Assembly: GCA_002269645.1 (NCBI GenBank)
Contig: NIVC01000260.1
Span: 588,461-652,460, forward strand
Reading direction: 5' to 3'
DNA length: 64,000 nucleotides
From: Macrostomum lignano
Taxonomy: Eukaryota
Below are positions 4,471 through 48,739 of this stretch, one piece after another (the stretch's first letter is position 1; the number at the start of each line of letters is the position of its first letter). The notes under the pieces are model-generated. The model ran no database searches and was not told where the DNA came from. It saw nothing but the letters and a program-made list of their open reading frames with translations. The translations under genes and the position numbers were made by a program.

Positions 4471-5269
4471 CGGGCGATGCTCTCTGAACCTAAAAAGCGT
4501 AAATTTCGGGCCACGAGAATTCGTAGGAATGCTCATCATTTCTATATGATTTAATGGCAGTTTGATTCTTGCCTTTTTGTTGTTCGATTCTTTGCTCCAA
4601 GAATTTGATTCCGCCTGCAGTCACTTGTCGCTTTCTTCTACTGTTGGCTGCCTCGATCTGACTGTCTCAATGTCTGTGAAAATCCGTTGACGATGCAGAT
4701 ACAATTTTCTCTCCTCTCTTTTTTTAGTTTCTTCTTAATTTTGCAAAGTCGATTTAGGGGAACAGTTTTATTTCCACATTTGTGTAGGAAGACGCCACAT
4801 CCGGGGTTTATTGACAGTCGTGAGCTGGCAAGAGTTGCATTTTCTGTGTCCATTATCCGCTGTGGAAGGGTAACTTTACCAAAACTTTTGGCCACCTGAT
4901 GCATCCGAGGCTGAACTTGGTATGGTTGGCTTTGAGACTTCAATTAGCAGCAATATCCCTTTTTTGACTTTCTTGTCCAGCAGTTCTTTTGCTGTTGTGC
5001 CGGGCACTCTTGCAGTGCTAGCGCACCGCGTCCTCCAGTGCGTTTGAGTCATACCCATGCCCCCATTGTTCCCCGTTTGATGATTACGAGAATCACCCCT
5101 ATACATGTGTGCGAGGAAACTGCCTTGTCCACCAGTTCTATTGAAAATCAGCGTCTTGAAAATGTGGATTGCGGAACCTTCCTTTCTAATTTCTCTCAAG
5201 CTCGCAGTAAATCGAACATTATTGGCGATTCTGATTTAGTTGTGCATGCAACGCGTTTTTACCTCTCAT

Positions 5270-9356: not shown

Positions 9357-10073
9357 TCAGAGCAGTCGGAACTTGACCCAGTCGGCGCTCGTCTCGATCT
9401 CCGCCTCCACCTGAGCGTCGGTGAACAGCAGCAGGCGGCAGGCTCTCAGCTTGCTGTTGTACAGCACGTGTCTGCAGCTGGCGTCACTCATAGCGGCTGC
9501 AATGCACCTCATGGCGCTGCTCACATTCGGCACATCGGTGAAGCAGTACTCGGTGTTGTAGGTGGCTCTCTTGAACGACACCTTCTTCCAATTGGCAAGC
9601 TTCCGGTAAGCAGAGGGGTCCTTGTACTCGCAAGCGAATCCATAGTTATGGCTGCAGTTGGCGTCTCTGAGCAGCCCCAGATGGTCCATTCGAATGCAGT
9701 TTTCGTCATATCCTGACGGCTCGTATTCGTAAAACAGATCAAAGGGAGGGTCAGCGAAGCCGTTTCCGTTGACCCTCTGCCAGCCGGCTCTCTTGTTGCC
9801 TCTCTCATCGGCCAGGTCGCTCAGTCCGATCCACAGCTGGCAGCTGCAGGATGAGCTGATGCCGCTGCGATTCAGTGTCAGGATGGAGCTGTGCGAGTTA
9901 ACGAGCTCGCCTCCGATCGATGCGCACTGCCGATTGGCTGAGCACCAGCTGTGGCTGTGAGCTGTGCTCACGAACAGGCACAGACCGGCCTGCATGGTGA
10001 ACGGTGCGGGACACGGCAGGGCCTGCGACTGCAGCAGCTGGCAGCTCAGCAGCAGCAGCAGCAGCACAAGCAT
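9357..10073 (-). CDS. Secreted C-type lectin + PAN/apple protein, copy 3, intact (238 aa)
   Basis: Same architecture as copy 2 and highly similar to it; EPSGYDENC loop. Confidence 0.85.
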   Translation of the reverse strand: MLVLLLLLLSCQLLQSQALPCPAPFTMQAGLCLFVSTAHSHSWCSANRQCASIGGELVNSHSSILTLNRSGISSSCSCQLWIGLSDLADERGNKRAGWQRVNGNGFADPPFDLFYEYEPSGYDENCIRMDHLGLLRDANCSHNYGFACEYKDPSAYRKLANWKKVSFKRATYNTEYCFTDVPNVSSAMRCIAAAMSDASCRHVLYNSKLRACRLLLFTDAQVEAEIETSADWVKFRLL

Positions 10074-10171
10074 TTGGCGATGCTTTGAGTCTAAAATAAT
10101 TGTCTCTGGAATATTATCTTCATATATAGAACCGACTGAATCACCTTAGAGCACATTAACAGTAGCTCGTA

Positions 10172-20296: not shown

Positions 20297-22152
<1,856 letters not shown>

Positions 22153-22390: not shown

Positions 22391-23118
22391 ACTCGCACAA
22401 CCTAAGAAGACGGTAAAGCAAACTTAAATTACAAAGTTGGAAACAATTGAAATGGTTTTAATTTTTTTGAAAAATATGCTATATAACTTTGGAGTTGTTT
22501 TGGTCTCAGTTGGATCGGTGAAAACTGCTTAGAGACGACTGCAGAAGTGCTCGGAGATTAGGGGTCATCTGCTCAGGGATTACGCAAAAAAGTGCTGGTG
22601 AACCATTGCTAAACTGTAGAAACCAAGGGCTGTCAATGGCGAGCTTAAACAAAAAAACAGTAGACACTAGACATCCAGACCAGCCAGACTATTGGAAACT
22701 CGTCGACTGGGTATTTAAGTTTCAGTTTTTTCATACATATAAAAATCAACAGAAAATGATCAACTCTTTAGGACTGCTAGACAGCTCACGGAGTACTGCA
22801 GAATCGCATTCTCTTCATGACAAATGCACTGAGAGCTTTAGCAACAACAGAAAGGTAAATAAAAAGGAAGAAAAGCGCTTTGAGCGTCTTTACTTGTTTT
22901 GCAAGCATCGATATTTGCGTAGGAATTTATTTGTTCGCTGGCTTCTGCTTACTCACCTGTAAGTGGCTTTTAAAAGGCTGATGTAACAAAACTTTTATGC
23001 CATAGCAACGCGGACTGGTCGCAAATCAGATACTCGTAAATTCCCGACTGTCTACAATGGAAGAGTTTTTTGGTAACTGCGTGCTCTTTGTCTGTGCTCA
23101 ACATTTAGCGACAATATA

Positions 23119-23691
23119 ATGCAAGTGCTTCTGATTTTAAGTGCTCAACTGCTCTGGGCTTCAGCTCAGCCGTGCCCCGCTCCGTTCCACCTCGAGGCCG
23201 GCAAGTGCCTATTCGTGAGCACAGTTCAGAGCCGCACCTGGTGCTCAGCAAATGAGCAGTGCAAATCTATCGGAGGCGAGCTCGTCAACTCGCACGACTC
23301 CATCAAGCTGCTACTCGGTCGAAATATTTCCAGTGCCAACTGCGGCTGCGACCTGTGGATCGGAGTGAGCGACCTGGCCGATGAGAGAGGCGGCAGCAGG
23401 GCCGGCTGGCAGAGGGTCAACGGCAACGGCCTGCTCCCGGATGACAACTCCATGTACTTATCATACAATCCTACTGGCTCAACAGGAGAAAACTGCCTGC
23501 GCATCAGGAGGGATGTCACTCTTGGTGACAAAAGGTGCCACTCTGTTCTCGGCTTCGTGTGCGAGTTTGTGAGTGAGACAGCCCGGCACCCTGCTACCGG
23601 AGTTTGGAAGGCCGCTGACTTCAAGCGAGAGCTGCACCACTCTGTGTACTGCTTCAGCGATGTGCCGAATGTGAGCAGCGCCATGAGGTGC
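23119..23691 (+). pseudogene. C-type lectin + PAN gene copy 5, 5' part (split by LINE; 3' part at 29589-29700)
   Basis: MQVLLILSAQLLWASAQPCPAPF...SSAMRC. The reading frame resumes after the LINE as TAAGMRAASCRHMLYNSKLRACR. Confidence 0.9.
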
Positions 23692-23788
23692 TTGACTTAC
23701 TTGACTTAGCTGCAGGGCTGTCCCGGAGGGGACACAGCGGGAAGGCGCGGGCGCCCATTCCGCTAGTCCCTGAACGGCCGACGCGTCG

Positions 23789-26700
23789 CTATGGACGGAG
23801 GGTTGGCGCCGCCCAGGGAGGTCCCCCAGTGTCGCCAGCAGCTATGGTGCTCTCTGGAAAGGAGAGTTCAGCCCTGCGGGTGGCCCGAAGGTAGCGCATG
23901 AGCTGATTAAAGTTTTCGGGTTTGCACGCTTCAGTAATAGATGTGTGTGGCCCGAGGTAAGTGAGTCTGGCCCGCGTGAAGGCGGGACAGATGCTGACGA
24001 AATGCTCAGCGGTTTCGTCACCTGAGTTGCAGAAACTACAGGTGGCGTTGGTGGCGTTGCCCTGCAGGTACTGGTGCCTGGAGAAGCAGCCGTGACCAGA
24101 GAGGGTCATGGTGGCAGCCCGGATGTCTCTGCGCGAGAGGCGCAAGAGGAGCTTCCGGAGCTGGTGAGAGGGCTGAGGGACAGCGCCTCTGGATTGCCTG
24201 CAGTTCGTGCGGTTCGCCCAAGTCGAGCGGTGCTGAGTCCTGATCCACGCTTTGATGCGCGAGTCGATGACACAGCCAGGAATCGGGACAAGAGGTTCGG
24301 GGCCGAGAGAGGAGCCGGAGGCACCAACTTTTGCAAGGGTGTCAGCGAACTCATTTCCTCGGATCCCCACATGCCCCGGAACCCACTTAAGGGTAATTTT
24401 GTTGGCGGAACCCAACACATTGAGGAGTTTGATACAGTCAAGGACTGTAGCAGAGTTGGTGCTGCAGCCACTGATGGCGTGCAAGGCAGCTTGGCTGTCC
24501 GAATGGAAAATGATGTTCTTACCAGTAACGCCAGTGGCGAGAAGCTCTGCAGTGCAGGAGCTGATGGCCAGAACTTCATTTTGAAAACACTGGAGTTGAC
24601 CCCAGTGTATTGAGCGTGGGTAGCGATGACCCTCCCGTTCAGAAAGATTCCAACACCAAAGCCGGTGTTGGCTGACTGCTTAGAACCGTCGGTGTAGCAA
24701 TGAAGCTCACCAGGGTTCCAATGGTCATTGATGTTATCGCGCGAGTCGATAGCTACGGAGTAGCGCTGTCTCAGGTTGAGCGTTGAGGCAATGCCATCGG
24801 TGAAGACGCGATTGGCCTGACACTCGTTGAGAAAGTTGAGGCACAGATCGCTATGCGGGACAAGGTTCCGCTTAGCAGGTGCTCTCATGTAAATGAATTT
24901 GACGCCGGCATCAATTAGACGCCGCGTCGTTCTAGCCGCCTCACCCCTGATGAAGAGGTCAAGAGGCGGAAGATTAAGAAAGGCCCCCATGCCAGCAAAG
25001 GGCGTGGACCTGGTGGCGTTGCAGATGAGCCTACACGCTCTGCCTTGGATCGTGTTGAGCAGGTCTGCATGGCTTTTGACCTGGGTAGCGCTAACCCAGA
25101 CAACAGAGGCGTACGTAATGGCAGGTCTAACTACGGAAGTATAGATCCACCAAAGCCGCTTTGGGGATAGACCCCAAGAAGTGCCAAGTGCTCGTCGGAG
25201 CTGGGCCAGGATGGCTGAGGCACGCTTAGCTTTTGCTTTCACGTGGAAGGACCAGTTGAGCCGGTGGTCAAGTGTGACCCCGAGACATCTGGTCTGGTGC
25301 GCGAAGGCAATATCTCTGCCGTAGAGCTGCAGAGGACGTATGTTCCAGCGTAGTCTGCTGGTAAACATAATGGCAACGGTTTTGGGCTCAGAGAGTTCCA
25401 AACCATTGTCATTGGCCCAGGATTCTGCTTTGCGGATAAAGCTCTGCATCAGATCCCTGAGCGTGCTGGGAGACGGTCCTGCCACAATGGCCGTGACGTC
25501 ATCAGCATACCCGACTTTGAAGACGGGGTCAGGTCGGGAGTCACTCAGAAGAGCGTCCATGACCAGGTTCCAGAGCGTCGGGGTGAGGACTCCGCCTTGG
25601 GGTCCACCCTTACAGACTCTGGTGGAGGCAGTTTGCCCAAGAAGTTGGGCAGTGACCGTACGGTTGGAGATCATGTACATGATCCACCGTATGAGGGTAG
25701 CATGAGCTTTGCGATTTTGAAGGGCCCTCTGAAACGCTTCAAAGATAACGTTGTCGAAGGCGCCAACAATGTCAAGAAAGAGAGCCAGGGCGTAACCGTC
25801 ACCCAGTACCGCCCGTTCAATCTTTTCGACAATCGCATGCAGGGCGCTGTCAGTCGACCTCCCGGTACGGAAGGCGTGCTGATTATTGCTGAGGGGCATC
25901 GCTGTCAGCTCGCAGGAGAGCAGCCGCCAGAGAATAAGCCTCTCAGTGAGCTTAAGCATTGCTGACGTTAAGCTAATTGGCCGGAAGGCCTTGACGCTTT
26001 GGTAGTCACCCTTCCCAGGTTTGGGAATAAAGACTACTCGAGCTTCAGTCCAGCTTTTGGGAACGTATCCCAGCTGGATAGAGGCCCGCATAAGATTGCG
26101 GGTGAGTCTCAGGAACGAGGGTATCTTGGCTGCTTCACGAAGGAGAACAGGGTAGATACCATCAGGTCCAGGAGATTTGAAGGGTTTGAAGGTTCTGACC
26201 GCACGAGCGATTAGGTCTTCAGTGACAATGCCCGCCGCTAGGGTGGCTCCATCCATCGAATGGTTGGGCTCCGGTCTAGCAGTAGGTACCCTCGGGAAGA
26301 ATGTGCTAAGCATATGCTGAAGCACTTCTTCAGGGTCTTTAGTAAGAGAGCCATCATCTTTTTTGATCATGGCTAATTTGGACATTTTGTCCATTGTAAG
26401 GGCCTTGACAAGCCTAGAAGTAGGTCTGTCTTGATCCAATTCATTGCAGAATTGGCGCCACTTACATTCCTTGGCCTTGCGCACTTCAGATTTGAAATTG
26501 CGGGAGGCTTGCCGGAAAAGCTCCATGTCCTCCGGGTTTCCGGTCTTCATGGCACGGCGATGAAGGCTTTTGGCCTTCCGCCTGAGTTTCCCCAGCTCCG
26601 GGTTCCACCACGGCGCCGAGGTCTTGCCTCTGTAGGCGCGAGCAGGACAAGCCGCTTCGTAGGCTGCAATAATGCAACCTGTCAGCGTCTCAGCCATATG

Positions 26701-27528
26701 ATCCACATCCTCGCAGGTCTCAATCGGACGTAAGTCCGTGAGTTCCTGCAGGTGCAGATCAAGGGCAGCCTTGTAGGCCGCCCAATCAGTGTTGCGGATA
26801 TTGCGTCTCCAAGTGATCGGAGACTGGGTTTTAGTGTCCGCGATATTAAAGGCAATAAAGCAGTGGTCAGACAGGGAGGGCTCCTCAGACCAGACTCTCC
26901 ACTCCTTGACTCTGTCAAAGAGTCTTGGGGTAACGAGTGTGGCGTCGAGGACCTCGGTCCATCTGCCATTATTAAAGGTAGGAGTGCTGCCGCGGTTGCA
27001 GAGCATGAGGTTTGTGTTAGAGATGAGGGCCAGAAGCTCCTCTCCTCTAGTGTTGGTATCTTTGCTGCCCCAGTGCTTGTGGTGCGCGTTGAGGTCGCCC
27101 CCTAAGCACAGCTCAGCGTTCTGGGACTCGCAGTACTGCGCAAGGCGCAGTAAACTCTCGGGAGCAGGGTCTCTGTCGCCTGGGATATAAACCGAGGCAA
27201 CAAGACACGTACGCGGAGAGAAATGATTAGATTGGATGACGCAAAGGTCTCCATCAGAGAGATCAGTCCTCAGCCAAGCCTGGAGATGGCTAGCAGCGAG
27301 GATAGCCGCTCTAGGGCGGCTGTTCCCCGGGCCACACACATAAAAATCAGAGTAGCCAGAGGGAATGTTGGGCAACTTACCGTTGCGCATCCAGGGTTCC
27401 TGGATCAGGATGAGGCCTGGCCTGTACAGCTCAGCAATCTTCATCAGATTTACTGACGCAGATACGCAATGCTGTAAATTTATTTGCAGACAGAATGTCG
27501 CTCCTTTGGCAGCGTGGAGCTTAGTCAT
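23789..27528 (-). CDS. LINE ORF2: AP endonuclease + reverse transcriptase + RNase H + C-terminal CCHC; one 1-nt frameshift near 24585
   Basis: QINLQH, IQEPW, GGDLNAHH, SLSDH (APE). KSPGPDG, FRPISL, QGGVLTP, YADD (RT). YTDGS, SDSQAAL, WVPGH.G..GNE.AD (RNase H). CSFC...ETAEHF..IC. Confidence 0.92.
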
Positions 27529-27551
27529 ACTGTATTAAATGCAATATCTGG

Positions 27552-29702: not shown

Positions 29703-30102
29703 AGGGCTTAGCTCTATTAATATCAGGTGTCATCCATGTCTTGCTGGTATTTGAAATCAAGTTCCTAGGCCTCATGTTACTTTTTTAGTGCACGATCCCT
29801 TGTTAGACATCGGGTATGTTTCCCGTGACAACTACTACTATAGACAGCGACTGTCACCTTCAGAAATTCCAGTCGTCACGTACTGACGTACTGACGAACT
29901 CACGTACTGTATGCGAACCAAGGCAATGACTGAATGGTTCCTGGTCAATAACAGTTGGTTTGAAACTATTGATATTAATTGCTCCGAATTTTGGAAACGT
30001 GGCAATTAACCTAAACCGCTTCACTTGAAAACTACGTTCATGTAGACCAGCTAAGTGCCTACTTTATAACCGTAATACTAGGTAATTTATTGTTAGAATC
30101 AA

Positions 30103-30835
30103 ATGAAGTCTCTGCTGCTCCTCTGCATCCTGAGTTGTCAGCTGCTCTGGGCGTCAGCTCAGCCGTGCCCCGCTCCGTTCCGCCTTGAGGCCGGCAAATG
30201 CGTGTTCGTGAGCACAGTTCGAAACTATAGCTGGTGCTCAGCGAATCGGCAGTGCGCATCGATCGGAGGCGAGCTGCTCAACTCGCACAGCTCATTGAAG
30301 CTGCTAAGCAGCATGCCGAGTGTCAACTGCGGCTATTTGCTTTGGCTCGGCCTGACAGACCTGGCCGAGGAGAGAGGCAGGAGCAGGAGGGGCTGGCAGA
30401 GTCAACAGCAACGGAATCCTGCCACTGGACAATGCCCTGTGGGCTTCGGACGACCCTAACAACGAAGGCGGCAATCAGAACTGCATTACTCTGTCAGCTT
30501 CAGGCTTTCGAATGTTTTATCTGCACTGCTCAGGCCTGGCTGGATTTACCTGCGAGTTTGTCGGCGGACTGATATCGCAACCTCTGTCAAGCAGCTCATG
30601 GCGGTGGACTCCGTTCAAGCGCACCAGCTACAACCCCAGCTCCAAGTTCTGCCACGCTGACCTGCTGCAGGTGAAGAACGCCATGCACTGCGTGGCAGCC
30701 GGCATGCGTGCGGCCAGCTGCAGACACGTGCTGTACAACAGCAAGTTGAGAGCCTGCCGCCTGCTGTTGTTCACCGACGCTCAGGTGGAGGAGATGATCG
30801 AGACGAGAGCCGACTGGGTCAAGTTCAGCGTGTAG
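30103..30835 (+). CDS. C-type lectin + PAN gene copy 6; one frameshift near 30400 (pseudogene or assembly error)
   Basis: Signal peptide and CTLD in the first frame, then VNSNGILPLDNALWASDDPNNEGGNQNC...PAN in a second frame. cagagtcaac here versus cagagggtcaac in paralogs indicates a 2-nt deletion. Confidence 0.8.
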
Positions 30836-33196
30836 TGCAGACTCCCGATCACTATTTGGCCCATATAATCTCAATCTCGCCAATATGCTGAGAAAGCTGA
30901 GAAACACACTGCTACTGTCAAACAAGAACCCAGAGAATACAGTGGAAGAATTCTGTAGCAAATTTTTAGTTGCTGTGAAAACCGCGTATGAAGCATACAT
31001 ATATGCACATGCCTGCCAGGCAGCTGTTCAAACGTTCATCGCTAGATTGGTACCGGAAAGAAGCAGCTGTTGAGGAAAATGAGATGTCAGTCTACTGCAA
31101 AACTGAATACAGTGTAACTGACAAGCACTCACAGCTGAAGAGATGTAATAGGAGCGCTTTCGGCTGCATAGCAACTAAGTTTCACATTCGACAAAAAGTG
31201 ACAAATGACAATGAGAATGAGCAGATGGTAGAGCTAAAGGATAAATTCGCGTCAATTAAATGCGACCTATTTATATCCGTACTACTATCTGCTTCTATTG
31301 ATACATTTCATGAAATTTTCGTTAGAAAACGTGACGTCATACGTCTGTTGATTAACTTCGATTTTTCTGGGGCTAAATATATGAAATAAAAAGAAATCAA
31401 TATTTCTGTGAAAAGTAAAACTTCCACTGCATAAAAACTATATAAAATATAACAGTGTAACATGTTGACGTGCATGCTAAATTAAAGTAATGGTAATATT
31501 CACTGCGCCAGATCAAATGCAATCATTGATTTTGTGATGAAAAATGATTTTTCCCCTTCTCCCCACTGTATTTTTTTCAGGAAATCGACCAAAAAATTTA
31601 CACGATCTTTGAGTTTTACGTCCAAGGACTACACAAAATACTAGTTGTTTACGTCCTGTTATACTAAAGTGGTCCTTGTGACACATACGAGTGCGCAAAC
31701 ATATGTGACAGTGTAGTTCGTAGAAGTATGTGTACCGTATTTCCTTATCTCGCATTCATACCATACTACTTGTATTCTTTAATTTATTTTAACAATATTC
31801 TATACGTATTATTATCGCACTTATGTTACTGTAAAGTGCTTTGTTTTTGTTGTGGATGTTGGTCTTGTAGGTGTTTTTGTCGCCTCGTATATGTATTTAT
31901 TTTATTATTTGTATTTCATACATACCGTAATTTTTCTCGTAAAGTAGTTCTATCTATGTACATGTACTGACGTTATGGTATTCTTGCACGATACTCATTA
32001 ATTTGTACATGTACGTTGCGCATGGGGGGCTTGTCTGGCTTTTGGATTAGGGGTGTTGTTATCTTATTTGTTTACCTACCAATTAAATATACACTTGCAG
32101 TCAGCGGCCGCTCTCTCCCTTCGCACCCTCTGCTTCGCTTCTCGCTCTAGGCTCGCGAACCCCTTAGCTATCCGGCCTCCTTGCCTCAACTCTCCCGCCG
32201 CCTACCTCGGCCCACCAGCCAATGAATCCCGATCTTTGCAAGGCATAACGATTCAAAGTAACGCTAAGGGTGAAAGCGGCTTGCCGATCTGCTAAATCTA
32301 AATCGTGAACTATCCAATTAACCGCTACACAAATGGTCTTCCCGCCTTTATTCGTCACACATAATACACTAAGCCTCGTCAAAAATTAAAACGGGATCAC
32401 AGCTGATTGCTAAAACAAGGCTAAGACTACGTATCGCGCCGTTAAGTGTTGATTTTCAGAATTCTGACGCAAAAAACGCAAATTATACTACTATCTGAAA
32501 ATGAAGTAAGTAGTATACGAAAACGGTATCCTAAGCGTGATATGCGTATATGTAGTCATATATGTACATTAATCTCACATATGTACATTAATTCCATGTA
32601 CATTAATCCCTATCTATCTCAAATTGGATATGTACATTAATTCCATGTACATTAATCCCTATCTCAAATGTCCATGTCTATCCCCAATTCTATATGTACA
32701 CTTACATTAATCTACAGTGTCATCCCCAGCGCGCGCCGCCCAAAATTACATGTACAATACTACATGTACGCAGAGGCGAGAATTACTAATCTCATCTACT
32801 ACCAAATGAGTCAACTAACCGTGTAGCGTACATCATGTATAAGTATTTACAATGAAGATATATTTACATTTAATCAGTAGCATATTACAGGAATCAAGAC
32901 ATGTACAGCATCACCAGCAAATAGAATATACAGAAAATTTTACATTGTTTTTCAATAATTTTCTCTTCATAAATGATTTTAAACAGGTCTGACATGCAAA
33001 ATATGTACAATAGATTTTTACATTGGCAATTTCGCCACACACAATACAAAAATGCTCTATGTACATTGAATTATATACAGCAAATAGATTCTGATAAATA
33101 CAGTAGTATTACAATGCAAATTATGTACAATAAATAGATTTTACTAATTTAATATTGCAAAATGTACATTGAATTGTCAGTCACAACTAGAATACA

Positions 33197-36100
33197 TTAT
33201 TTATAGCCATAAGGCCTGCTGCAGGTCCCGTACACGCGTTTCGTCAGGACGCGCTGAAACGTCTTGTCCATACCAACAGTGTGTATGGTGCAAGACGCCT
33301 TGTCGCGCCTGAACTGAAACTGCGGCAGCTGCAGAGAACCGCCGTGTAGCAGGGCGTTGCGCAGGTCGTCGCTGCGTTCCCGAATCTCCGGAGTCAGGCG
33401 AATGCCCTTGCATTTCAGGACCTGGCTCCCGACACCGGCCGCATCCTCGACAATGTAAGTGTAGAGCTTGGGCCCTCCACTTACAAAGTCGGTCATCCGG
33501 CTGCCTGCGGACACCTCGTCGGTCCACATTCCGAGGCTCGTGCCATGGGGCGGCTCCCATTGGCCCTCGGAATGCCGGTAAACGACCCTGGGTATGGGGA
33601 GAGAGATAATTAGTTCCACATGCCAACTATTCAATTCTAAAAGAATTTTTCCAATGCAATACTTACGAGTCAGTGTCGCAGTAAATGGCCCGTTCGCCGA
33701 GCCCCTCCAAGGCCTCGTACAGGCGCAGCCGGGCCTGCGTGGTTGTAAAAACCCCGATTGGCACATTAGAGTAGCGAAACGGCCGCTGATTAAAGTAGCG
33801 GTGCCGGTACTCTAGCAGCATAAACTCGCTGCCAATCGGTTCGCAGGCCTTGACTTTGAGGTTGGGGTCTGTCAGCCGGGCGAGCCAGTCCTCGTAGCTG
33901 GATACTATTTCTGTCGATGTCAGGTCGTCACGCTGACAAAATTTACCCCAGAGCCTGTGTGTTGTGAAAAGAAGTGCTACTGTTAGTAGAAGAAAATCAT
34001 TTAAAAAAACAGAATTTATAATTACTTACGAATTCAAAAAGATTTTCGCTACAAAGCGAAGTCCTGGGTTGGGCTCGACCTTGTCCAGCGTGACGCCCTC
34101 CTTTGCAAAGAAATCGGCAATGTAGGCGGCCTTGTCTTCATCCGACATGCCGGGGGAGCCGCTCGACTCAGCCTTCAGCTTGAGGAAGGTGCTAACATAG
34201 TCACTGAACAGGCCGGTCCGCTTCTCTGTCCAGTAGGCTAGCGCGTGCACCATCTGCAGCCGGTAGCCCAACTGGAAGGCCTTCCGCAGCTCCGGCGTGG
34301 CCCAGGTACCAGTCAGTGCCCGCTGCTCGTCTGAGTGGTCGCAGCACTCGTCGCCGCACTGCTGCTCCATACAGGTGCGGCAAAGCCCAAAAAAAAGCTT
34401 CTTTTGCACTCTGTACGGCAGCAGCGGAATGTGCAAATTTGACGGCGGCAACACAGTCACCTTGGCAATACCAAAGTAACTAGCCAGCGCGTCAGAATCG
34501 AGCACTTGCGGCGTCGGATGCTGCACCGGGTGGCCAATCGGGTACGGGTCCTTTGACTGCACCGTCGGGTACAGAGAGACCTGCCAGTTGAAATAAAACA
34601 TTATTTTCATAAACTGTATTTTTGCAAAATATTCTACTATATTAGTAGTATCACTACTCACCACATCCCGATATTTGAGAGTCTCAGTCTCGCTGGCCAC
34701 AGCATGCGGGATAAAACACTCTACGCGGCCGCCATAGAGAGCATCTTCCATCTTGAGCGGAGCGCGCAGATGTGCAGTTGCGGCAATGAAATCGGCCTGC
34801 GACGCCAATACAGTGTCGTATTCGTGCTCCCAAATGACTCGAACACTGTAATTGTGCCGCTCCAACTCGCGAGTAAACCACTCGGTTTCGTGGCGAATGT
34901 GGCTCAGAGGCTGCCGTTTCAGTGGGTGGACAGCATCCTGATCGGCATGCACTGCTCGCAGCCATGGTAGAAACAGCCATGAAACTGCAAGACAGTGTTG
35001 CTCGCCTCATCAAAACCATCCACCTTGCGGCCAAGAATGACAGCCTCGCCGTCAGTCGAGTCGCAGGTGCGCAGCCGCCCGCCAAATTCGGTGGCATTCA
35101 AATAGGTCAGCCACTTGCGCGCCTTGAACGATTGCTGGTCGGCCTGCCGGGCAATCACGCCGACCGAGTTGGGCTCCATAAATCGGGTGGTGAAAACGGC
35201 CATTGCCAAACTGGCAATCGTATTGGCCTGTACAAATGGTTCCAGGCCGTCGCAAATGTCTCCAATTATTGCCCTGTACTTGATACAGCCCTCGCGAAGC
35301 AGGACTGTGTCGCTCAAACAATAATCGAGATATTCCCGATTAAAGTTGAACAACTCGCCCTGTCGCGAGGCTAGCCAAGCACAGATTGAGTCATAGTCCT
35401 TGTTTGCTTTGCCGCCATAATATTCAATAGCCGGGTAGGAGCCCACGTAGTTCCAATTAGCCGGCTTGTTAAACTCGTGGGGAAACGTCCCCTTGGCCAG
35501 CTTTGTGTCAGCGAGCCCCAGCGCTTTTGGGAATTGCGCAAGCGGGATTGGTATGAAATTTAACGAATCTTTGAATACCAATTTATCCACCGTCATGCTC
35601 ATTAGCCGGCTGCCCTGGAACAGTACTTGTGGCCGCTTCTTGGCCAGGCCGTTGAGTAGAGCGCCAAGCAGTAGAAACGAATCGTAGCCTGATGCATTGT
35701 GCGCTACAACAATGGCGCCGCCTCGGAAAGCTGTGCTCAGCCAGGCGAAAAATGCATTTAGCGAGGCCGGGCCCACAGACACAAAATCGGCCATTTGGCA
35801 GGCGCAGTCTGAGTGGCTGACGCAATTGGAGAATTCCTCCCCCAGATCGCGGCCAGTCAGACAATTGGCGGCGCTATGCAGGCCATTGCAGAGGCGGCAA
35901 GTCTCGCGCGGAAACGCCCGGCCGGAGCAGGTCTCGCAGCACGTGACGGCAGTCACCAGGTGCACGTGATGCTGCTTCTCATCGTCCGTGTATGTTTCCG
36001 TATCGTAGAACACGTACGGCATAGTCGAAGCTTTCACTTTGGGAGCCTTGACGAAGCACAAATGCGAGCCGGCCTCGTCGTACTGTTTACACAGTGGGCA

Positions 36101-38698
36101 CTTGACATGGCCGCACTTGTGCTCCGGCTCCTTTTGACCGGCTTTCAGGTCTTCGCAATACCCGCAATTGGGGCAGACACGGGTTGAGCTGCAGCGTGAC
36201 CGCCCCGCCCGGTTCTTTCGGCGGTGGTTGTCGAAGCACTGCTGATTGTAGCACTTGAGGCCACAATCAGCACAGCGTTTGTAGTCACGCTGCAGGCTCT
36301 TGCAGTCGGTGCCGGGCACTTTGCATTGAGGGCAGGTGTTGGCACACTTGTGCTCTCTAGACTTGCAGTCGTACGGCTGCTGGCACCGGTCACAATAGCG
36401 GCGGGCACCAAAAAATGGCGGCACCTTGCACACTGCGTTAAAGTGCTCGCCAATTAGGTGCAAATTCAGCACTTCGCGGCCGGGCAGGGCATACACACAT
36501 GTATTGCCCTCCTCAGCACTGTATACCCGGACGCCGAAACCCCGGCCGGGTGACTGGGCGTTCAGGGCCGCGAGCAGTTGGGGAAGCACATCAACCCCGA
36601 ATGGCCCGTCCTGTGCAATGGTTGATAAAGACTAAAACATTTGTATATTAATAAAAATGCAAATTAAAATGTGTAAGATTATTTTTTACTCACCGAATAC
36701 AATTTGGCGGCAATCTGAAGTTCCCCAGTCAGCTTCGTCTGCAGTGGGGAGTCGGCCTTGATGGTCTGCCAAGTTTGCTTAGTGATGGCTTTGGCCTGCA
36801 GATCGGCAAAGGCCTTGGCCACCACCAGCGCTCGAATTAGACAGCGCTTGTCGCTGTTGGCGATGATGACATAATTGCGTCCCCCAATTGAATGCCGGGC
36901 CTGGATGTGACGCTCCGCCGCATCTAGGCTGCCGCAGCCGCCCCGCGGGACCCAGGCCTTGAGCAAAAACAATTTAAAGTTGTTGCCCAAGACACTGGAG
37001 TCCGACTGCAGCACCTTGTTTATATGCTTGAAGACAAGCTCTGCAGTGAAGCGGCTGCGGCGGACGGGCGGGACATTGATGGCGAGCATCATATTGTCCG
37101 CCGTCAGCTTAGATGCGACGAAGTCGTCGACATTCAGGTCGGCGCAGAGGGTTGCTATTACTTTCTCGAATGTGGCTCTAATATCGGTGAGTGCTGTGAA
37201 TGAGACTTCATACTCGTAGCCCTTGGCTCTAAATTTAGGCAGGGCTTTCGCCCCGCCAAGACGCGCAATGAAGCCTGAAAAAATGGAGGGTTTGAAATTA
37301 GAATTGCGAGTGAATGACTCATGAAATAAAATCAACTCCTTACCCTCGCCTTCGACAGTGTCGGGCTGGGGCGGGGGTTGAAATTGAGCCAAATCTGCAA
37401 TAAAATGCGCATGGTGACTAAAATTCTGACCGCTTGGAATTTTACAACTGTCAAAAATTTTTGATTGATTGCCTGCAGCAGCAGCAATTTTATCGCCCCA
37501 CCCCAAGCAACAAAAATCGGTGAGTTGTAAAAACCCCAACTCGGCACGTTCCGACACGTAGCAACAAAAGAAATGTGGGGTTGATTGACCCCCGCTTCGA
37601 ATTTTAGGCTGTCAAAAATGTTTGATTGATGACCCTGATAACACAGATCCTGCTGCAGCAGCCATTGTAAAATTTAAGAAAACCCCTATCAGCACGTGCC
37701 TCCATTGTGCCTCCTTGACACCTAGCAACAATACCGCGCGGCCGCTTTTGGATTTTTAAAGCTGTCTGATTAATAACCCTCACTGTAGCAGCCATTGCTG
37801 CCAAAACCCCTACAATTGCAGCGGTGATTACATCATCATGTCCAAAAATCGGGGGTTGATTTTATCACTGCCGCCTGCCCGCCCCCCCGCTGAGTCACGC
37901 GCGCGCTGCAGGATTGCTGTTTTTGCTTCTCTAGTTCAAGGATTAGTCACATAACCCCTGAAATTTTATGACTATCCTCTACAGGCATTATCTAGCTATA
38001 CTGCTGCTGCTGATATTCTCTAAAACTCTGTTATTTCAACAGGCCTGAATTTGAGAAATCCAGTTTCCTCCTTTTACTTCAACATCTATGTCAAGAAGAA
38101 ATTCAGAAATTTTAACCCAAAATGGATGCTAAAGATGAAAAGCAGCTGTGGTTTCAAAGAAAGCCCATATTTCAACAAGCGAAAAGTTTGCAAATCACAC
38201 TAATGCTAAAGCTGAAAAGCGCAGTTATACAACCCTATTTTTCTAATTTTAGATTTTGCAAATGCTAAAGATGAAAATAATTGAGGCTAATGAATAAAAA
38301 GCAGTTTTTCAGAGAGTCCTATTATTTCAATAAGCTGAATTTACAGTTTGCAAAGCAACTCTGAATGCAAAGGGTGAAAAGCAGTTTTACAGTGGGGCCT
38401 CCTATTATTTCAATAAGCCTTATTTTGAGTTTGCGAAAGCCAAATGAATGCCAAAGATGAAAAAGCAGTTTTTACAGAGAACAGCCCTATTTTATTCAAT
38501 AATCCCGAATTTGGAGTTTCGTAAAAGACAAAGACGAAAAAGAAATTTTTACACAGACTTGCAATACTCACCTAGCGGGCGTCCTCTCTTTGTGGCCGGA
38601 GGCTGATGCTGTTGTTGCTGCTGCTGCTGTTGTGAGGGGCCTGCTCGCCCCCACAGGGCTGAAATGGCGGCTTCAGCGGCTGAACGCTTCGATGCCAT
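33197..38698 (-). CDS. Protein-primed family B DNA polymerase, 7 exons, ~1319 aa, one 1-nt frameshift near 34945
   Basis: Exons 38698-38572, 37394-37344, 37274-36694, 36631-34662, 34580-34030, 33954-33667, 33587-33197. All introns are GT-AG and phases are consistent. Motifs: Exo YDTETY, AHNASGYD, FKDSLNF, YCLSDT; Pol LYGGRVE, DVVSLYP, KIFLNSLWGKF, YCDTDSVVY, KR...PYGY. Confidence 0.9.
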
Positions 38699-38834
38699 TG
38701 TGATGCTGCTGATGCTGCTGATGCTGGTGTGATTGTGGCTGCTGCTGCTGCTGCTGTTGTTGCTGATGCTTCTGTTGTGGCTTCTGCTGCTGCTGGCTGC
38801 TTCTGCGGATGCGGCTGCAGCAGCTCTCACCCGT

Positions 38835-38842
38835 TTTATATA
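38835..38842 (-). promoter_or_regulatory. TATA box of the pPolB gene
   Basis: TATATAAA on the minus strand ~140 nt upstream of the ATG, followed by a CAG-rich leader. Confidence 0.55.
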
Positions 38843-41800
38843 CCCCGCAAGAGGGAGGGTGGGGTAGGGGCACGAGAATTGTGCGTGATTTTCTTTCCCG
38901 GGTCTATATTCTCCAGATTAGTGTACGATTGAACACTCGGTTCCACATTTGGTATAGAAAATTTGGGGGTCGAAAATAAAATACCCCACCAATTCTTTTC
39001 TCATGCGGTATTTTATTGGATCTGAGCGTAGCCAGCCAACCGGCACTCTCGCAGGAGTGAAAATTGCTACAGAGTACAGTCTCTCAAAGAAGAAGACCGC
39101 TTCCTCTTGCAGCATGTCTTTTCGACTTGAATCGGATAGAAAACGGTGTTTACCCAGAAAATAATTGGCAGAAGTTGACCAATAATAGCTGAATACAGAT
39201 GAAAAATATGAAAGATGACTTCTGTGTTTTTTAAGGCCCGCAGGTCTCTGCGAGAAAATGGTTGTTAAAAATCGCTGTATCAATTTAATAACCTGGGAGA
39301 AATGGGGTTTGTGTGCAAAGCATCTGATTAACAGAGGCTCGGGGAAGAGTAATAGTCGATGAAAAGCTCTTGCCATCATCTAAAATATCCATCAAAGAGT
39401 AATAAAGGTGACAGCCCCTGTCTCGAGCCAAATCAGACAGACAGAGTTTTCTACTTCTGTTTACGTAATGTTTAGGGATGGACCTGGGGTTATAGGGACA
39501 GAGAATCAGTTATGGAATTTACGCGGTAGTAAAGAATTGCCTTGGTGTGGCTGGGGTAGGTGTTGTTCTCTCCATATTGGCGAACATTAATTGTCCTGGG
39601 TTGAATTTTGAATATGGCTAGAATGTATAGCGGAGAATCGTTGAATTGAGTGATTCAACATGCAAAGTATTCAACAAAACCGATTCAGTGCATCAAAGAG
39701 GCTGTTGTGAGCTTCAGAACAGAGAATAACGTTTAAAATAGCATCAATGGCATGATTTAGTAATCGAAATCAATTGAATGCCGAAAACTTTAAGTTTAAT
39801 AGCAGACTGTGTTTTTAGCCCCAATTTTTACAGTGTCTATAGAATATTTCCCCAGCTTCTTGGGCAATATACATGCCTATTTGAATGACGAAACAGCATT
39901 TGTGATGCTTTATTAGCTAAAATTATTATTTGGGGTCAGTCAGTTATATTGAAAAAATGACAGATTTCGATTCATAAAGTAAGCATTTTAACGTTAAGAA
40001 TCGAAAAATGAGAAAACTCGTGTTTTTCATTAAAAAGTTTGCATTTCTATTTTTTTTACCATTCATCAACTATTTCTTGGGCTGGGCTGGCTTGTGGACT
40101 TCCGTGTGGGATTCATTCCTGCTTCGAAGCCGTCTCAAGTAAAGTTGAAACGGCATTTGGACAAATTAGCTGTTGAAATGATGGTTTCCAGTGATGAAAT
40201 TACTGATTTTGATCAACAAAGTCTAACTTGAAACGGTAAAATTAAAGAAACTGGAGAAAACTCGCCTTTTATGAAATGTGCTTTTTACGAGCTAGTAATT
40301 TAGCTTTTAATAAACTTGGACGGAATTCCAACTTGGAGAGGTCAGTGGGTGATTCATTCCTGCTTCGAGAGATCGAACTTTCATAGAGTCTGAAAGCTTG
40401 AAGTGAGAGGGCAGGGGAAGCGATAGAATTGACATAGCCGCACGTTTTTGGGCGGGTGGACTTCACTACTTCTAGTATACCGCATTGGTTATAGTGCCAA
40501 AGTATTTCTGTGACAAAACACATCTATAGAATTCAGTCTCGGAATTGTATGCAGAGGAGACACTGATTCATAGGCTGTGTACATTGACAGATGCAGCTGG
40601 GGTTTGTCAATGCAGGTGGAGGTTGACTCGGATTTGCCCAGATTCGTGGGGTTGATATGTGCATTAAAGTTAGTTTCTTGCTAACTGGGGGCGGCATGGA
40701 TGACGTAATTGGATAAGAGGGGTTTTGCTGAATGAGGTTTAATTTAAGGTCCGTGCTGTCAAAAGATCTGTTTGTACACTGAAATGGAGAGAGGGGTTGG
40801 AATTCCTTGGCATTTAGAAGGGTGACAGAGAGAACAGGGGCGAGTGGTTCAATTCGATTTGCTATAGGGGTCTGCACTGTGTCTGGTAAACATCGGAGGG
40901 GTGGCTGTTTTCGAACAGGGTTGAATTTTGAATATGGCCAGAGATAAAGGGTGATTCAACATGCAACATAATTAATTCCATAGTGTACACCAGCGTCAGT
41001 GGCACATTTTGCGGATTACAGCGCGACAAGGGGTCTTGTATCATCTGCACTATCAATAGATATATAAAACATTGCTTTCACAGTCTTGATTTAGAGGCCA
41101 ACTAAATAAATATATACGTATCAAAGCTCGGCCGGCTTTTTGTGTAAATATATATACGTCTTTTGACAACTTATTTGACTCGGGTAGAGGCATTGGGAAT
41201 GACGTAATTGTCTCGGAGTGGTGACGAGGGCTGAATTCTAGAGGTATGAAGTATAAAACAAGTGGAAATAACAGTGTGGACCGCGATTTTTGGCTGACTC
41301 ATGCCTCCTCTGCCAATTTTGGGGGATGGGCGGCGGTTTCTGCGTACACTGTTTGCTTTCTGTGGATCAGCAGATCATGAAGAGTTAATTCTTGGATGTG
41401 CGGCCACTTTGCAAATTTTGGGTATAATATCAATATGGGTGGGTGGGCGCTTCTGCATGCTGTTTCAACTATTGAAAACTCATTTGGTAATAGTAGATGA
41501 GATTGTACAGCGCGCGCGTACACCAATTCTCACCTCTGCGCACAACTGTACACACGTAGTAGGGTTTCGAGTTGTACATGTAGTCTTGGTGATTCATACG
41601 CAGAGCGCGCGGGCCGTCTGGGGATTAATGTATGACACTGTACATGTAGAAGTGGATTAATGCACATGTATGTACTGTGTACATATAGAATTGGGGATAG
41701 ACATGGACATTTGAGATAGATAGGGATTAATGTACATGGGATTAATTTACATATCCATTTTGAGATAGATAGGATTAATGTACATATGTGAGATTAATGT

Positions 41801-42620
41801 ACATATACGACTACATATACGCATATCACGCTTAGGATAGCGTTTTCATATACTACTTACTTCATTTTCAGATAGTAGTATAATTTGCGTTTTTTGCGTC
41901 AGAATTCTGAAAATCAACACTTAACGGCGCGATACGTAGTGCTAAGATACATATTTATAGAAAAAAACATTGGCTCCAGCTGAGAGGGACATAACCCCCT
42001 TGTCCTCCCCCTGGATTGGCCACTGGGTAGTAAGTCACGGGCCGGGCTAAAATATTCTATTTTGATGTGCTGGTTAGGCCGGAAAAATTGGAAGCATTTA
42101 GTTTTTATTATTATATTTTTCGACCTTTCTTACAAATATGTAACAAGAATAAAACAATTTTTATTTTATTACAGTTTCACAAAAGCTTAACAAAATCAAC
42201 TTTGTTAGGTTACAACAAAATAGTAAACATGCTTAGTTTAAACTTTAAGTCTGTCGTTTCGCGGAAATGTCGTTAAAAGTTTTTTTTGACAGCCTTACGT
42301 TCTAGCTCGCTTTAGTGTCATATGAGTGTAGTTTAGTGTTAAAAATTGTGCAACTTTTATTAGCTATTAGATTCAAAATGTTTTAAACCAGAATTACCTC
42401 TCTCAGGGTTTAAAGGGCTCCAATATACAAGAAGTTACAATGCCTCGTTTCCAAAAATTTGAATACTAACTAGATGCATTGTGTAGAATTTTAGGTGCAA
42501 TTGCACCTAAAATATTATCCTGGGTGCAAATTTAGTTTTTTGTACTGTAATTTGTAAAGCTTCAACCTATTTTTTTTAATTTGCAGCCTAAACTTGAATT
42601 CTATGCCTATTTATTTTTAA

Positions 42621-46290: not shown

Positions 46291-46706
46291 ACCAACCAAG
46301 TTCTATTGATTATAATTTTTGCAGCAAACTATAATGAATAAAATCTTTATGGAAATAAAATAAGGCTTCTAAGTAGAAGAAGGACAGCATCTTAATGCTG
46401 CCTAACTGATCCCAAAAAATTTGATCTCAACCAATCTCTAGTTCTATTGTAACTTTATTTACTTAGCTTTGACTGGTATAAAGTTGTGGTGTACTTCTGT
46501 ACAAAATCACAATCTTTTTAATTTCGATTTTTGGTTAGTCTCAATTGTGGTTGACTAATCAGCTAATGAATAATTCATTAGGTATTCTTTAATATTCTGT
46601 GCCATTTTTTCAACTAGCAAAGGTTTCCAGTCCAGGTGCTTGAAATCGCACTTATATAATATAGCAGTCCATGAACGGAACCCGACTTTACTGCTGAAGC
46701 CTGTCA

Positions 46707-48739
46707 ATGGAGGACTCGAACGATAGCGCCAGCAGCGAGGGCAGCAGCAATTCCTCGTCAAATGTTGGCCTCGTCATGCACGGAGCCGGAGGAGCCACCG
46801 GCTGTGCACCGGGTGGTCGTGGCGGCGGCGGCGGGCCTCGGGACCAGGAGACGCTGGACAAGGAGCGCTACGCTCGCGAGAGTCACTGCGAGATCGAGCG
46901 CCGCAGGCGCAACAAAATGTCGGCGTACATTGGCGAACTGTGCGACATGGTGCCCAGTTGCGCGAACTTGGCGCGCAAGCCGGACAAGCTGACCATTCTG
47001 CGCATGGCTGTGGCGCATATGCGCGGCCTGCGGGGCACCGGCAACACTGGAGTGGACGGCACCTATAAGCCGTCATTTCTAAGCGATTTGGAATTGAAGC
47101 ATCTTGTGTTGGAAGCCGCAGACGGGTTCCTGTTCGTGTGCCAGTGCGACACGGGCAGGCTGGTCTACGTCAGCGACTCCGTTAGTCTCGTGCTCGGCCT
47201 CAGCCAGGCTGAATGCTATCAGCGACCGCTGTACGACCTGCTGCACCCGGACGACAGGGAGAAAGTTCGTGACCAGCTGGCCTCGGCTGATCCGGCCGCT
47301 GCTAGGGTGCTGGATCTGAAAACTGGCACGGTGAAGAAGGATGGCTACCATGGTGAGGGCTGTTGGAAGTGCAGATTTTTTAATTTCGATACATATCGGT
47401 AGCTTTGTTATTCCATAAAAATCGATACATATCGGCAAACATATTATTTTATAAAAATCGATACATATCGGTAAATATAATATTTTATAAAAATCTATAC
47501 ATATCGGTAAATCTATTATTTTATAAAAATCAATACATACCGGTAGTTTTATTATTCCATAAAAATCGATACATAATCAGTTAGCTTTTTTATTCCATAA
47601 AGTTGTTTTCGATACATATCGGTAGTTCCTTATGTGATGTGTATCAAACGTAATTTTACGGAATTGGTTAGTTTTTTGTTTTTAGTCCACTGTATTAAAA
47701 GTCATACGGTATGGAGAGCAAAATTACTTAGTTATGATAAATGTAAATTTCTATACATATCGGCAAATGCTCACGATTTTAGCCCACATGCGCAGCACTA
47801 TGGGCGCCAGGCGCTCATTTATGTGCCGGATGCGAATTTGCCCGCCGGATGCGCAACATCCGCAGCAGCCGCCTCATCAGCGCCAGCGCCAGCGGACTAT
47901 GCTGGCCCCATCAGCTGACGGTCAGCAATACGTGATCGCCCACGTGTCCGGCTATTTGAAACAGTGGCCAGCCTCTCAGCAGCATCATCATCAGCAATCG
48001 GACGATATTGTCGGAGACGCTTCCGGCGCGTCGGTGCCGCACTGCCTGGTGGCTCTGGCCAGGCTGCAGCCGACCGCGCTGCCTCCGGATCTGCCGCATC
48101 AGCAGCCGCAGTCGCAGCAGCAGCAGCAACAGCAGCAGCTCATGCTCATGATGGGCGCTCTCGGCCAGTCTCAGTCCGAGTTCGTTCTGCGAATCGGCCC
48201 GCCCGCTGGCCAGCCTGCTGAGGGCGCCGATAGCGGCGAAGGTCCCGATCCCACCGTGGTGACGTTCTGCGATCAGCGCGTCACAGCTGTTCTCGGCCAC
48301 CGGCCGGCGGATCTGGTTGGCCGGCCACTGTCCGAGCTGGCCGCTCCCGGGGACCGGGCCAGGCTCCGGGCGGCCGCTGTGGCTGCTGCAGCCAGCCGAG
48401 GGCAGGTGAGGCATCTGCGTTTGTTGCTACTCTTCCTAGCTGATGGCGCCAGCATCCGATAAGTTAAGCAGAGCTGGCAGCGGTTAGTGCAGGCACGCAC
48501 TCATACACGCTCACACAGGGTGTACAGCGGCCCTGACTGTCTAATCGTCAGGCATGTGCACTCTCTGTGCCTTTGCTGGTCGGCCCTCTTGGTTGTGAAT
48601 CCCGGCACAGCCCCTGATGAATGCGGCCGCGCACAGGCAGCCATTGTGAGCGAGTAGCAAATGTTAGCTCAACTCTGTAGTAGAGCTGTGCCGGGATGTA
48701 AATATGCAGGCAGACAGACACGCAGACAGACAGACACGC

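What the first reader, a model, noticed from the sequence alone, without database searches (positions are those of the whole stretch)
33197..38698. Virus-type protein-primed DNA polymerase B interrupted by six spliceosomal introns
Seen: the scattered ORFs join into one ~1319-aa frame through six GT-AG introns: 38571-37395, 37343-37275 (69 nt), 36693-36632 (62), 34661-34581 (81), 34029-33955 (75), 33666-33588 (79). Three introns fall directly in the catalytic motifs: DV|VSLYP (A), LNS|LWGKF (B) and DTDS|VVY (C). Splicing restores these motifs exactly, which independently supports the model. Introns are AT-rich and exons GC-rich, and a TATA box lies upstream. Known: Polinton and adenoviral pPolB coding regions are typically uninterrupted. 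Inference: a mobile replicase that acquired host-like gene structure and depends on nuclear splicing; this could reflect long residence, a silencing-evasion or regulatory switch, or early domestication.
Basis: partly seen in the sequence, partly recalled or inferred. Interest (0 to 1): 0.85.

Follow-up and report, generated by a model that had tools for sequence, protein, structure and literature searches.

The report
Split Polinton with spliced polymerase
In a flatworm genome, a virus-like jumping element carries only a DNA polymerase gene cut by six introns (three of them inside the catalytic motifs), while its integrase and capsid genes lie on a separate element with matching ends, so the two likely work together as one two-part virus-like transposon.

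Summary
The six GT-AG introns are real, at the stated coordinates. Probable RNA runs of three studies skip introns 4 and 6, and two studies skip intron 5; a likely DNA run skips none. This copy is not one open frame: it has a private frameshift in exon 4. The gene lies in a 9,515-bp element with terminal inverted repeats and a 6-bp target duplication, at least 40 copies, dN/dS 0.12, so it is mobile, not domesticated. A second family (47-74% identical) has the same introns. Introns 4-6 sit in motifs A, B and C. New here: polymerase elements lack integrase and capsid (0 of 14). Separate 8-14-kb elements carry integrase, capsid, protease and ATPase but no polymerase (0 of 24). Their first ~31 bases match family by family. 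Best reading: a bipartite Polinton in Macrostomum lignano (host named by UniRef labels); complementation is inferred. This scan noted intron-split Polinton polymerases before in three other genomes. The split organisation was not found in my searches of papers or earlier notes.

The parts
32420..32425 (.). 6-bp target-site duplication GCTAAG, left copy
32426..32701 (+). Terminal inverted repeat (starts ACTACG); its first ~31 nt are the part shared with the family-A capsid/integrase elements
   Evidence: 91% over 280 columns to the other arm, 6 mismatches, 2 gaps
33197..33587 (-). pPolB exon 7 (end of motif C, GGPK, KCKG, stop)
33588..33666 (-). Intron 6, 79 nt, phase 2, in motif C (DTDS)
   Evidence: (skipped in X1, X5, X6)
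33667..33954 (-). pPolB exon 6 (motif B second half to motif C)
33955..34029 (-). Intron 5, 75 nt, phase 2, in motif B (LNS|LWGK)
   Evidence: (skipped in X5, X6)
34030..34580 (-). pPolB exon 5 (SLYP of motif A to KxxLN of motif B)
34581..34661 (-). Intron 4, 81 nt, phase 0, in motif A (DV|VSLYP)
   Evidence: (skipped in X1, X5, X6)
34662..36631 (-). pPolB exon 4: cysteine-rich region, exonuclease motifs, Vsr-like FHGCFYHGC stretch, GGRVE
34941..34951 (-). Frame break private to this copy (lesion or assembly error)
   Evidence: 0 of 18 siblings share it
36632..36693 (-). Intron 3, 62 nt, phase 0, at an unconserved place; no spliced contig listed
36694..37274 (-). pPolB exon 3; inferred terminal-protein region and first half of the vOTU-like protease (domain order from PMC11161782, not tested by structure)
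37275..37343 (-). Intron 2, 69 nt, phase 1
   Evidence: (net 69-nt skip in X1 only)
37344..37394 (-). pPolB exon 2 (51 nt)
37395..38571 (-). Intron 1, 1177 nt, phase 1, repeat-rich, often holds nested insertions in siblings; no spliced contig listed
38572..38698 (-). pPolB exon 1 (ATG, Gln-rich, basic)
38834..38842 (-). TATA-like box
   Evidence: same arrangement in family B
38900..41676 (.). Upstream arm without integrase, capsid or PC4-like gene; shared with non-coding derivatives of the family
41677..41940 (-). Terminal inverted repeat, right arm (ends CGTAGT)
41941..41946 (.). 6-bp target-site duplication GCTAAG, right copy

Best explanation
The window holds one copy of a 9.5-kb element whose only recognisable gene is an intron-split protein-primed DNA polymerase; it is likely the replication half of a two-part Polinton, whose other half (separate 8-14-kb elements with the same first ~31 bases) carries integrase, capsid, protease and ATPase genes and would integrate and perhaps package both. 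Shown: the spliced gene structure, splicing of introns 4-6 in sibling copies, purifying selection, mobility (terminal repeats, 6-bp duplications), complementary gene content and family-matched ends in two pairs (A and B). Inferred: after splicing, the polymerase primes on its own terminal-protein domain at the ACTAC ends and copies both halves in trans, helped by a PC4-like DNA-binding protein where one is present. The partner's integrase makes the 6-bp duplications of both halves, and ends are exchanged while the halves replicate together. Why three introns sit in motifs A, B and C is least certain. My pick (about 0.4) is that introns gained there were kept because they break the recognition sites of endonucleases that cut conserved polymerase motifs. 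Next come survival of introns where imprecise loss is lethal (about 0.3) and a splicing switch (about 0.15).
For: No capsid-element gene in 14 of 14 polymerase elements with both ends seen, 13 of 14 with a 6-bp duplication; no Polinton integrase by tblastn or profile in 16 elements, apart from a nested retroelement in C538. No polymerase or PC4 hit in 24 of 24 capsid-element stretches; 22 have paired ACTAC ends and 20 of these a 6-bp duplication. Integrase: rve above cut-off. Capsid: Atlas 0.98 to DJR-like clusters, fold hits PBCV-1, Sputnik and mavirus capsids at E 2e-13 to 6e-10 from a pLDDT-54 model. Ends: an identical 15-nt start is shared by 15 of 25 polA ends with capA and 8 of 10 polB ends with capB, and by 0 across families or with 14 ends of ordinary Polintons. 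79 polymerase contigs and 60 capsid contigs share two, 46 and 468 kb apart. Selection: dN/dS 0.12 in the spliced frame; pN/pS 0.09-0.35 in capsid-element genes. Families A and B are sisters (SH-aLRT 100, quick tree) with identical intron positions and phases at 8/8, 8/8, 8/8 and 7/7 junctions. Introns 4, 5 and 6 lie in the top 5.8%, 0.2% and 0.8% of conserved windows. Controls: the same polymerase type is one frame in two viral contigs; ordinary Polintons of this genome have 1036-1478-aa open frames; 9 of 11 metagenome loci of 10 kb or more with a related capsid also carry a polymerase.
Against: Complementation, replication and particles are not observed. Genome searches score only the best candidates (37 of 425, 98 of 532), so a rare full-length element is not excluded. 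End similarity is short (~31 nt, plus one 180-nt patch at 78%), and ordinary Polintons in the genome could in principle lend a polymerase or integrase. The RNA label of the runs is a guess, the contigs are mostly of sibling copies, X1 also covers the introns, and introns 1 and 3 have no listed joint. For the endonuclease idea: no intein-sized insertion in 170 homologs except 49 aa near motif A in one, no intein family in 11 long homologs scanned, and no cutting enzyme was identified. Some copies are assembly duplicates (C485/C583).
Confidence: 0.68

Rival explanations
1. Both element types are non-autonomous deletion products of one ordinary full-length Polinton that is rare, collapsed in the assembly or recently lost; they are moved by that parent, not by each other.
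For: Internal deletion and nested derivatives are common in this family. Searches are capped at the best candidates. Related capsid genes elsewhere usually sit with a polymerase (9 of 11).
Against: 0 of 14 and 0 of 24 elements mix the two sets. The same split holds in two families whose capsid genes differ at pS about 0.7. Both halves are under purifying selection. Beyond ~31-50 nt the long terminal repeats of the two halves are unrelated, unlike simple deletions.
Confidence: 0.17
2. The two halves are independent parasites of the ordinary AGTAGT-ended Polintons of this genome: the capsid element borrows their polymerase, the polymerase element borrows their integrase, and the shared ends reflect recombination only.
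For: Ordinary Polintons are abundant and often intact (73 capsid matches; 111 integrase matches). The PC4-like gene of family B resembles theirs (29%, E 2e-9).
Against: Their ends share a median of 1 nt of prefix with the ACTAC ends, whereas polA/capA and polB/capB match family by family. The capsid elements have their own integrase.
Confidence: 0.1
3. The spliced polymerase is being domesticated as a host gene.
For: Host-like exon-intron structure, TATA box, spliced contigs and dN/dS 0.12.
Against: At least 40 copies at different sites with terminal repeats and their own target duplications; family-B repeats up to 99.9% identical; most copies carry lesions, with 5 of 23 free of frameshift or stop in the parts of exons 3-7 compared; the window copy is broken.
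Confidence: 0.04

Closest known systems
Polintons/Mavericks (alpha adintovirus type; pPolB with a VSR nuclease domain, Jeong et al. 10.1101/2023.08.22.554363)
   Same: pPolB of PF03175 with homologs in Nematostella, Branchiostoma and Heterodera; terminal inverted repeats; 6-bp duplications; taken together the two halves hold pPolB, rve integrase, capsid, protease and ATPase.
   Different: Published elements are 13-25 kb with all genes in one element and intronless core genes. Here the genes lie on two elements of about 9-10 kb, the polymerase has six introns, and ends are ACTAC..GTAGT, not the AGTAGT..ACTACT of this genome's ordinary Polintons.
Bidnaviruses (Bombyx mori bidensovirus; PMC4061559, PMC8502044)
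   Same: Two segments with matching termini, only one of which encodes a Polinton-derived pPolB.
   Different: Bidnaviruses are ssDNA, 6-6.5 kb, with a parvovirus capsid on the polymerase segment. Here both halves are integrated DNA with a double-jelly-roll capsid and integrase on the second half.
Cytoplasmic linear plasmids derived from Polintons (PMC11161782)
   Same: A capsid-less replicon built on a TP-vOTU-Exo-Pol protein between inverted repeats.
   Different: This one is nuclear, spliced and integrated with target duplications.
Introner-containing Polinton-like elements of dinoflagellates (10.1101/2025.03.18.643946)
   Same: Spliceosomal-type introns inside Polinton-like proviruses.
   Different: Those are young intron-making transposons, mostly inserted after integration. 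Here six fixed positions are shared by two diverged families, and three lie in catalytic motifs.
Spliceosomal introns at intein sites (Anaeramoeba PMC10710043; Bathycoccus PMC3749507)
   Same: Introns at or beside conserved motifs, including family B polymerases, proposed to block homing endonucleases.
   Different: There the intein is seen in paralogs; here none was found among homologs.

Membership tests
Polinton/Maverick | [quoted passage not shown] | tested here: met
   PF03175 above cut-off in two exon frames; motifs aligned with homologs
Polinton/Maverick | Retroviral-type integrase in the same element | tested here: not met
   None in 14 polymerase elements; present only in the partner elements
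Polinton/Maverick | Capsid, ATPase and protease genes in the same element | tested here: not met
   None in 14 polymerase elements; present in partner elements. Protease and minor capsid are named by position and motif only; ATPase by 30-32% identity to a Polinton ATPase
Polinton/Maverick | Terminal inverted repeats and 5-8-bp target duplication | tested here: met
   13 of 14 polymerase elements and 20 of 22 paired capsid elements have a 6-bp duplication
Polinton/Maverick | Length 13-25 kb | tested here: not met
   8.8-10.1 kb in 11 of 14; the other three are 10.8-21.6 kb, the two longest through nested retroelements; the two halves sum to about 20 kb
Polinton/Maverick | Intronless core genes | tested here: not met
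   Six introns in pPolB; capsid-element genes are single frames
VSR-type pPolB (pPolB2 subgroup) | VSR nuclease domain between exonuclease and palm | tested here: inconclusive
   FHGCFYHGC stretch conserved; a homolog has weak DUF559 (E 5e-4) and one is named a very-short-patch endonuclease; no direct PDB hit
pPolB with fused primer | N-terminal terminal-protein and vOTU domains | not tested
   Inferred from position and a conserved Cys and His; Atlas gave only unnamed eukaryotic clusters
Bipartite replicon (bidnavirus-like organisation) | Two segments with matching termini and complementary genes | tested here: met
Bipartite replicon (bidnavirus-like organisation) | Functional complementation in trans and separate packaging | not testable with these tools
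   Needs free DNA or particle data from the animal
Bidnaviridae | ssDNA genome with parvovirus-type capsid | tested here: not met
   Partner capsid is a double jelly roll
U2-type spliceosomal introns | GT..AG ends removed from RNA | tested here: met
   Introns 4-6 skipped in runs of two or three studies, intron 2 in one run; introns 1 and 3 by sequence and conservation only

The most novel reading that the evidence does not exclude
A segmented, integrating double-stranded DNA virus of an animal: a Polinton that split into a spliced polymerase segment and a capsid/integrase segment, persisted as two co-diverged pairs, swaps its terminal 31 bases between segments during shared replication, is packaged as separate segments, and shields its three catalytic motifs from nuclease attack with spliceosomal introns.
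Probability: 0.35. Interest if true: 0.93.

Novelty: new variant of a known kind. Interest (0 to 1): 0.82.

Why it matters
Polintons are defined by having polymerase and integrase in one element, and surveys require several core genes within about 20 kb as open frames. A split, intron-containing form fails both filters and would be filed as debris, so such lineages may be missed widely. It would show genome segmentation arising inside a host genome in a dsDNA virus lineage, a possible model for how bidnaviruses and capsid-less linear plasmids arose. It offers a laboratory animal in which free DNA and particles of an animal Polinton can be looked for, with two size classes predicted. Spliceosomal introns usually show no preference for conserved sites (PMC2814812), so one intron in each polymerase motif is a testable case of biased intron gain or survival.

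Tried and rejected
Longer polymerase-bearing copies as full-length Polintons: rejected, the extra length is nested LINE/LTR DNA. Capsid-bearing AGTAGT elements first seemed to lack a polymerase; rejected, they encode a distant endonuclease-VII-type pPolB. Pfam families 'C' and 'D' as further spliced families: rejected, they are uninterrupted ordinary Polinton polymerases. The C126 internal 769-aa frame as the mobilising transposase: rejected as a nested CAC..GTG element, EnSpm-like by recall. An intronless or processed copy of the A/B polymerase: none among 37 scored of 425 candidates. Inteins in homologs: none. Pox_A32 search of the genome gave 0 matches although ATPases are present, so such blanks are weak. 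No close relatives in viral contigs or in metagenome contigs with the exon-5 pair. No listed run is on record as RNA. Single-sequence fold of the capsid was unusable (pLDDT 31). The careful tree did not finish; the quick tree is quoted. The full spliced polymerase was not folded. The unknown frames of C538 were not searched in the genome. Kapitonov and Jurka 2006 is not held and is cited through PMC8097293; Repbase and supplements were not seen and may describe these elements.
Full report
Observation. Two exon frames pass the Pfam cut-off for DNA_pol_B_2. The claim of one open 1319-aa frame fails: exon 4 has a frame break near 34,945 and the model then meets stops. Exon pieces translated one by one are free of stops, and several database models match them at 82-100%; these proteins are labelled Macrostomum lignano, which names the host. 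None of 18 sibling copies readable at the break shares it.

Splicing. I laid 4 of the 24 listed runs at 85% likeness. Three are guessed to be RNA and come from three studies. Contigs skip exactly intron 6 in X1, X5 and X6, intron 5 in X5 and X6, and intron 4 in X1, X5 and X6; X1 has a net 69-nt skip at intron 2. X15, the deepest run and of unrecorded kind, shows none of these joints. Limits: the RNA label is a guess, X1 also covers intron sequence, most contigs differ from the window by several per cent and so stem from sibling copies, and introns 1 and 3 are not among the 15 joints shown (10 hidden). In 23 sibling copies GT..AG is kept at 12/12, 15/16, 19/19, 18/20, 21/23 and 19/21 located junctions and no intron is lost. 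Pooled dN/dS against the window copy over exons 3-7 is 0.12; 5 of 23 copies have no frameshift or stop in the parts compared.

The element. The gene lies in a 9,515-bp element (32,426-41,940) with ~275-bp terminal inverted repeats starting ACTACG and a GCTAAG duplication. The genome gives at least 40 matches to the polymerase DNA (55 candidates), some of them assembly duplicates. A second family, B, is 47-74% identical by exon piece, 8.8-10.1 kb long, has 0.9-1.4-kb repeats up to 99.9% identical and ACTACT ends. Introns 3-6 have the same position and phase at 8/8, 8/8, 8/8 and 7/7 junctions, and the one copy read in full has exons 1-2 and introns 1-2 in the same phases. A and B are sisters among animal pPolBs (SH-aLRT 100 in a quick tree of 38 rows on the exon-4 region), so the introns predate their split. 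Seven of 8 family-B stretches and 5 of 23 family-A copies, but not the window copy, carry a divergent 152-aa frame that is 29% identical (E 2e-9) to the PC4-domain gene of ordinary Polintons (its own Pfam PC4 score is below cut-off).

Position of the introns. On an alignment of 54 full-length homologs, the junctions of introns 4, 5 and 6 fall in the top 5.8%, 0.2% and 0.8% of six-column conservation windows, and intron 3 at 86%; introns 1-2 lie outside the alignable part. Three of four in the top 6% has a chance near 8e-4 (hand arithmetic, after the fact). The exonuclease motifs in the 1970-nt exon 4 have no intron. Swithers et al. [quoted passage not shown] PMC10710043 (passages) and PMC3749507 (abstract) describe spliceosomal introns at intein sites and propose that they block homing. 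I found no intein among 170 homologs or in 11 long ones scanned with Pfam, so that mechanism stays a guess. Of 85 homologs that end early, a few stop at motif B or C at other positions (P0108, P0151), which fits three earlier unchecked notes of this scan on other genomes; their DNA was not seen.

The missing genes and the partner. None of 14 polymerase elements with both ends seen has an integrase, capsid, ATPase or protease gene, yet 13 have a 6-bp duplication. Searching the genome with a Polinton integrase and reading 14 loci showed that ten are ordinary Polintons or parts of them and four are 10.2-10.9-kb elements with ACTAC ends and no polymerase. These encode an rve integrase, a 428-443-aa double-jelly-roll capsid, and frames placed as minor capsid, protease and ATPase; type B adds a Fic-domain frame. 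A capsid search gave matches on 60 contigs (98 scored of 532). Twenty more were read: in all, 13 of type A and 11 of type B, 22 with paired ends, 20 of those with a 6-bp duplication, and 0 of 24 with a polymerase or PC4 hit. Their genes are under purifying selection (pN/pS 0.09-0.35). The first ~31 bases vary in blocks and match by family: an identical 15-nt start is shared by 15 of 25 polA ends with capA and 8 of 10 polB ends with capB, with some identical 31-mers, and by none across families or with 14 ordinary Polinton ends. Further in, the repeats are largely unrelated. The contig lists of the two halves (79 and 60) share two contigs, 46 and 468 kb apart.

Controls. Ordinary Polintons in the same genome have AGTAGT ends, all core genes in one 14-18-kb element and a distant endonuclease-VII-type polymerase, in many copies as one frame of 1036-1478 aa. 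Two viral contigs carry the window's polymerase type as single frames of 1261 and 1416 aa beside an ATPase, one also beside an integrase. Nine of 11 metagenome loci of 10 kb or more with a related capsid also hit a polymerase.

How it likely works. Shown: structure, splicing of introns 4-6 in the family, selection, mobility, complementary content and matched ends. Inferred: the spliced polymerase, with the fused terminal-protein and protease domains described for Polintons (PMC11161782, passages), copies both halves from their ACTAC ends; the partner's integrase inserts both; its capsid module may package both. Confidence 0.68. Rivals: deletion products of an unseen full-length parent (0.17), independent parasites of ordinary Polintons (0.10), domestication (0.04).

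Literature. Intact vertebrate Mavericks and a nematode Maverick have intronless core genes (PMC8097293, passages; 10.1101/2022.07.12.499685, passages). Introners occur in dinoflagellate Polinton-like elements (10.1101/2025.03.18.643946, passages). Integrase-less integrated Polinton-like elements are known, with help in trans suggested (PMC11296320, passages). Bidnaviruses are bipartite with matching termini (PMC4061559 and PMC8502044, passages). Also read in passages: 10.1101/2023.08.22.554363, PMC12220804, 10.1101/2024.01.15.575659 (not informative). Ten searches (listings and starts of abstracts) showed no paper on Macrostomum Polintons, on a spliced Polinton polymerase in an animal, or on a two-part Polinton; the library lacks most subscription papers, Repbase was not searchable and supplements were not read. 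Earlier notes of this scan hold intron-split polymerases in three other genomes and nothing on a split element.

Verdict. Observation partly confirmed; first reading partly supported. It works like a Polinton but fails the single-element membership tests: a new variant of a known kind. Interest 0.82.

Noticed in passing
first 31 nt of all ACTAC-ended elements, e.g. window 32426-32456: The terminal 31 bases vary as a mosaic of ~5-nt blocks (17 variants in 26 capA ends, 15 in 25 polA ends), and left and right ends of one element often differ; unexplained.
   Followed up: partly
family-A copies vs window exons and introns: Fourfold-degenerate sites differ at about 12% (24% where the window has A/T) but short introns at 4% and other non-coding DNA at 2-7%; unexplained, perhaps GC-biased conversion in exons.
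   Followed up: partly
G000 genome-wide (L051-L078, L089-L118, L159-L192): Several families of ordinary Polintons, at least 73 capsid and 111 integrase matches; one family also has a D5-type primase-helicase, others PLA2, PC4 or dUTPase-like frames.
   Followed up: partly
L180:8921-9724 and L180:6848-7381: Type-B capsid elements carry a Fic-domain frame (E 7e-14) and a weak TBP-like frame.
   Followed up: no
G000:C106 (L176-L178): An ordinary AGTAGT Polinton of 12.1 kb nested inside a 21-kb element with family-B ends, each with its own duplication.
   Followed up: no
L047-L050 (C362, C125, C4191, C900): Non-coding, partly palindromic derivatives of 4-9 kb with family-A ends and 6-bp duplications.
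   Followed up: partly
L043:3624-L044 (C126): A nested CAC..GTG element with a 769-aa transposase-like frame and a CIDE-N frame, EnSpm-like by recall.
   Followed up: partly
L041:6489-8474 (C538): Two unknown frames (367 and 269 aa) between family-A ends; a possible third segment or a nested element.
   Followed up: no
P0204-P0206: Capsid proteins 78-80% identical to the type-A capsid in unnamed ENA/Logan assemblies, so close relatives exist outside this genome.
   Followed up: no
P0001-P0020: UniRef already holds gene models of these polymerases, mostly mis-spliced (exon 5 skipped, or fused to flanking genes such as ADAM proteases) and named only 'DNA-directed DNA polymerase'.
   Followed up: partly
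window 3751-30835: Cluster of C-type lectin/PAN genes (3751-4620, 9357-10145, 23077-23709, about 30100-30835) with a LINE (endonuclease, RT, RNase H) at 23789-27534 and a 1.9-kb TCTG array at 20297-22152.
   Followed up: no
window 46698-48462: bHLH-PAS host gene beside the element.
   Followed up: no
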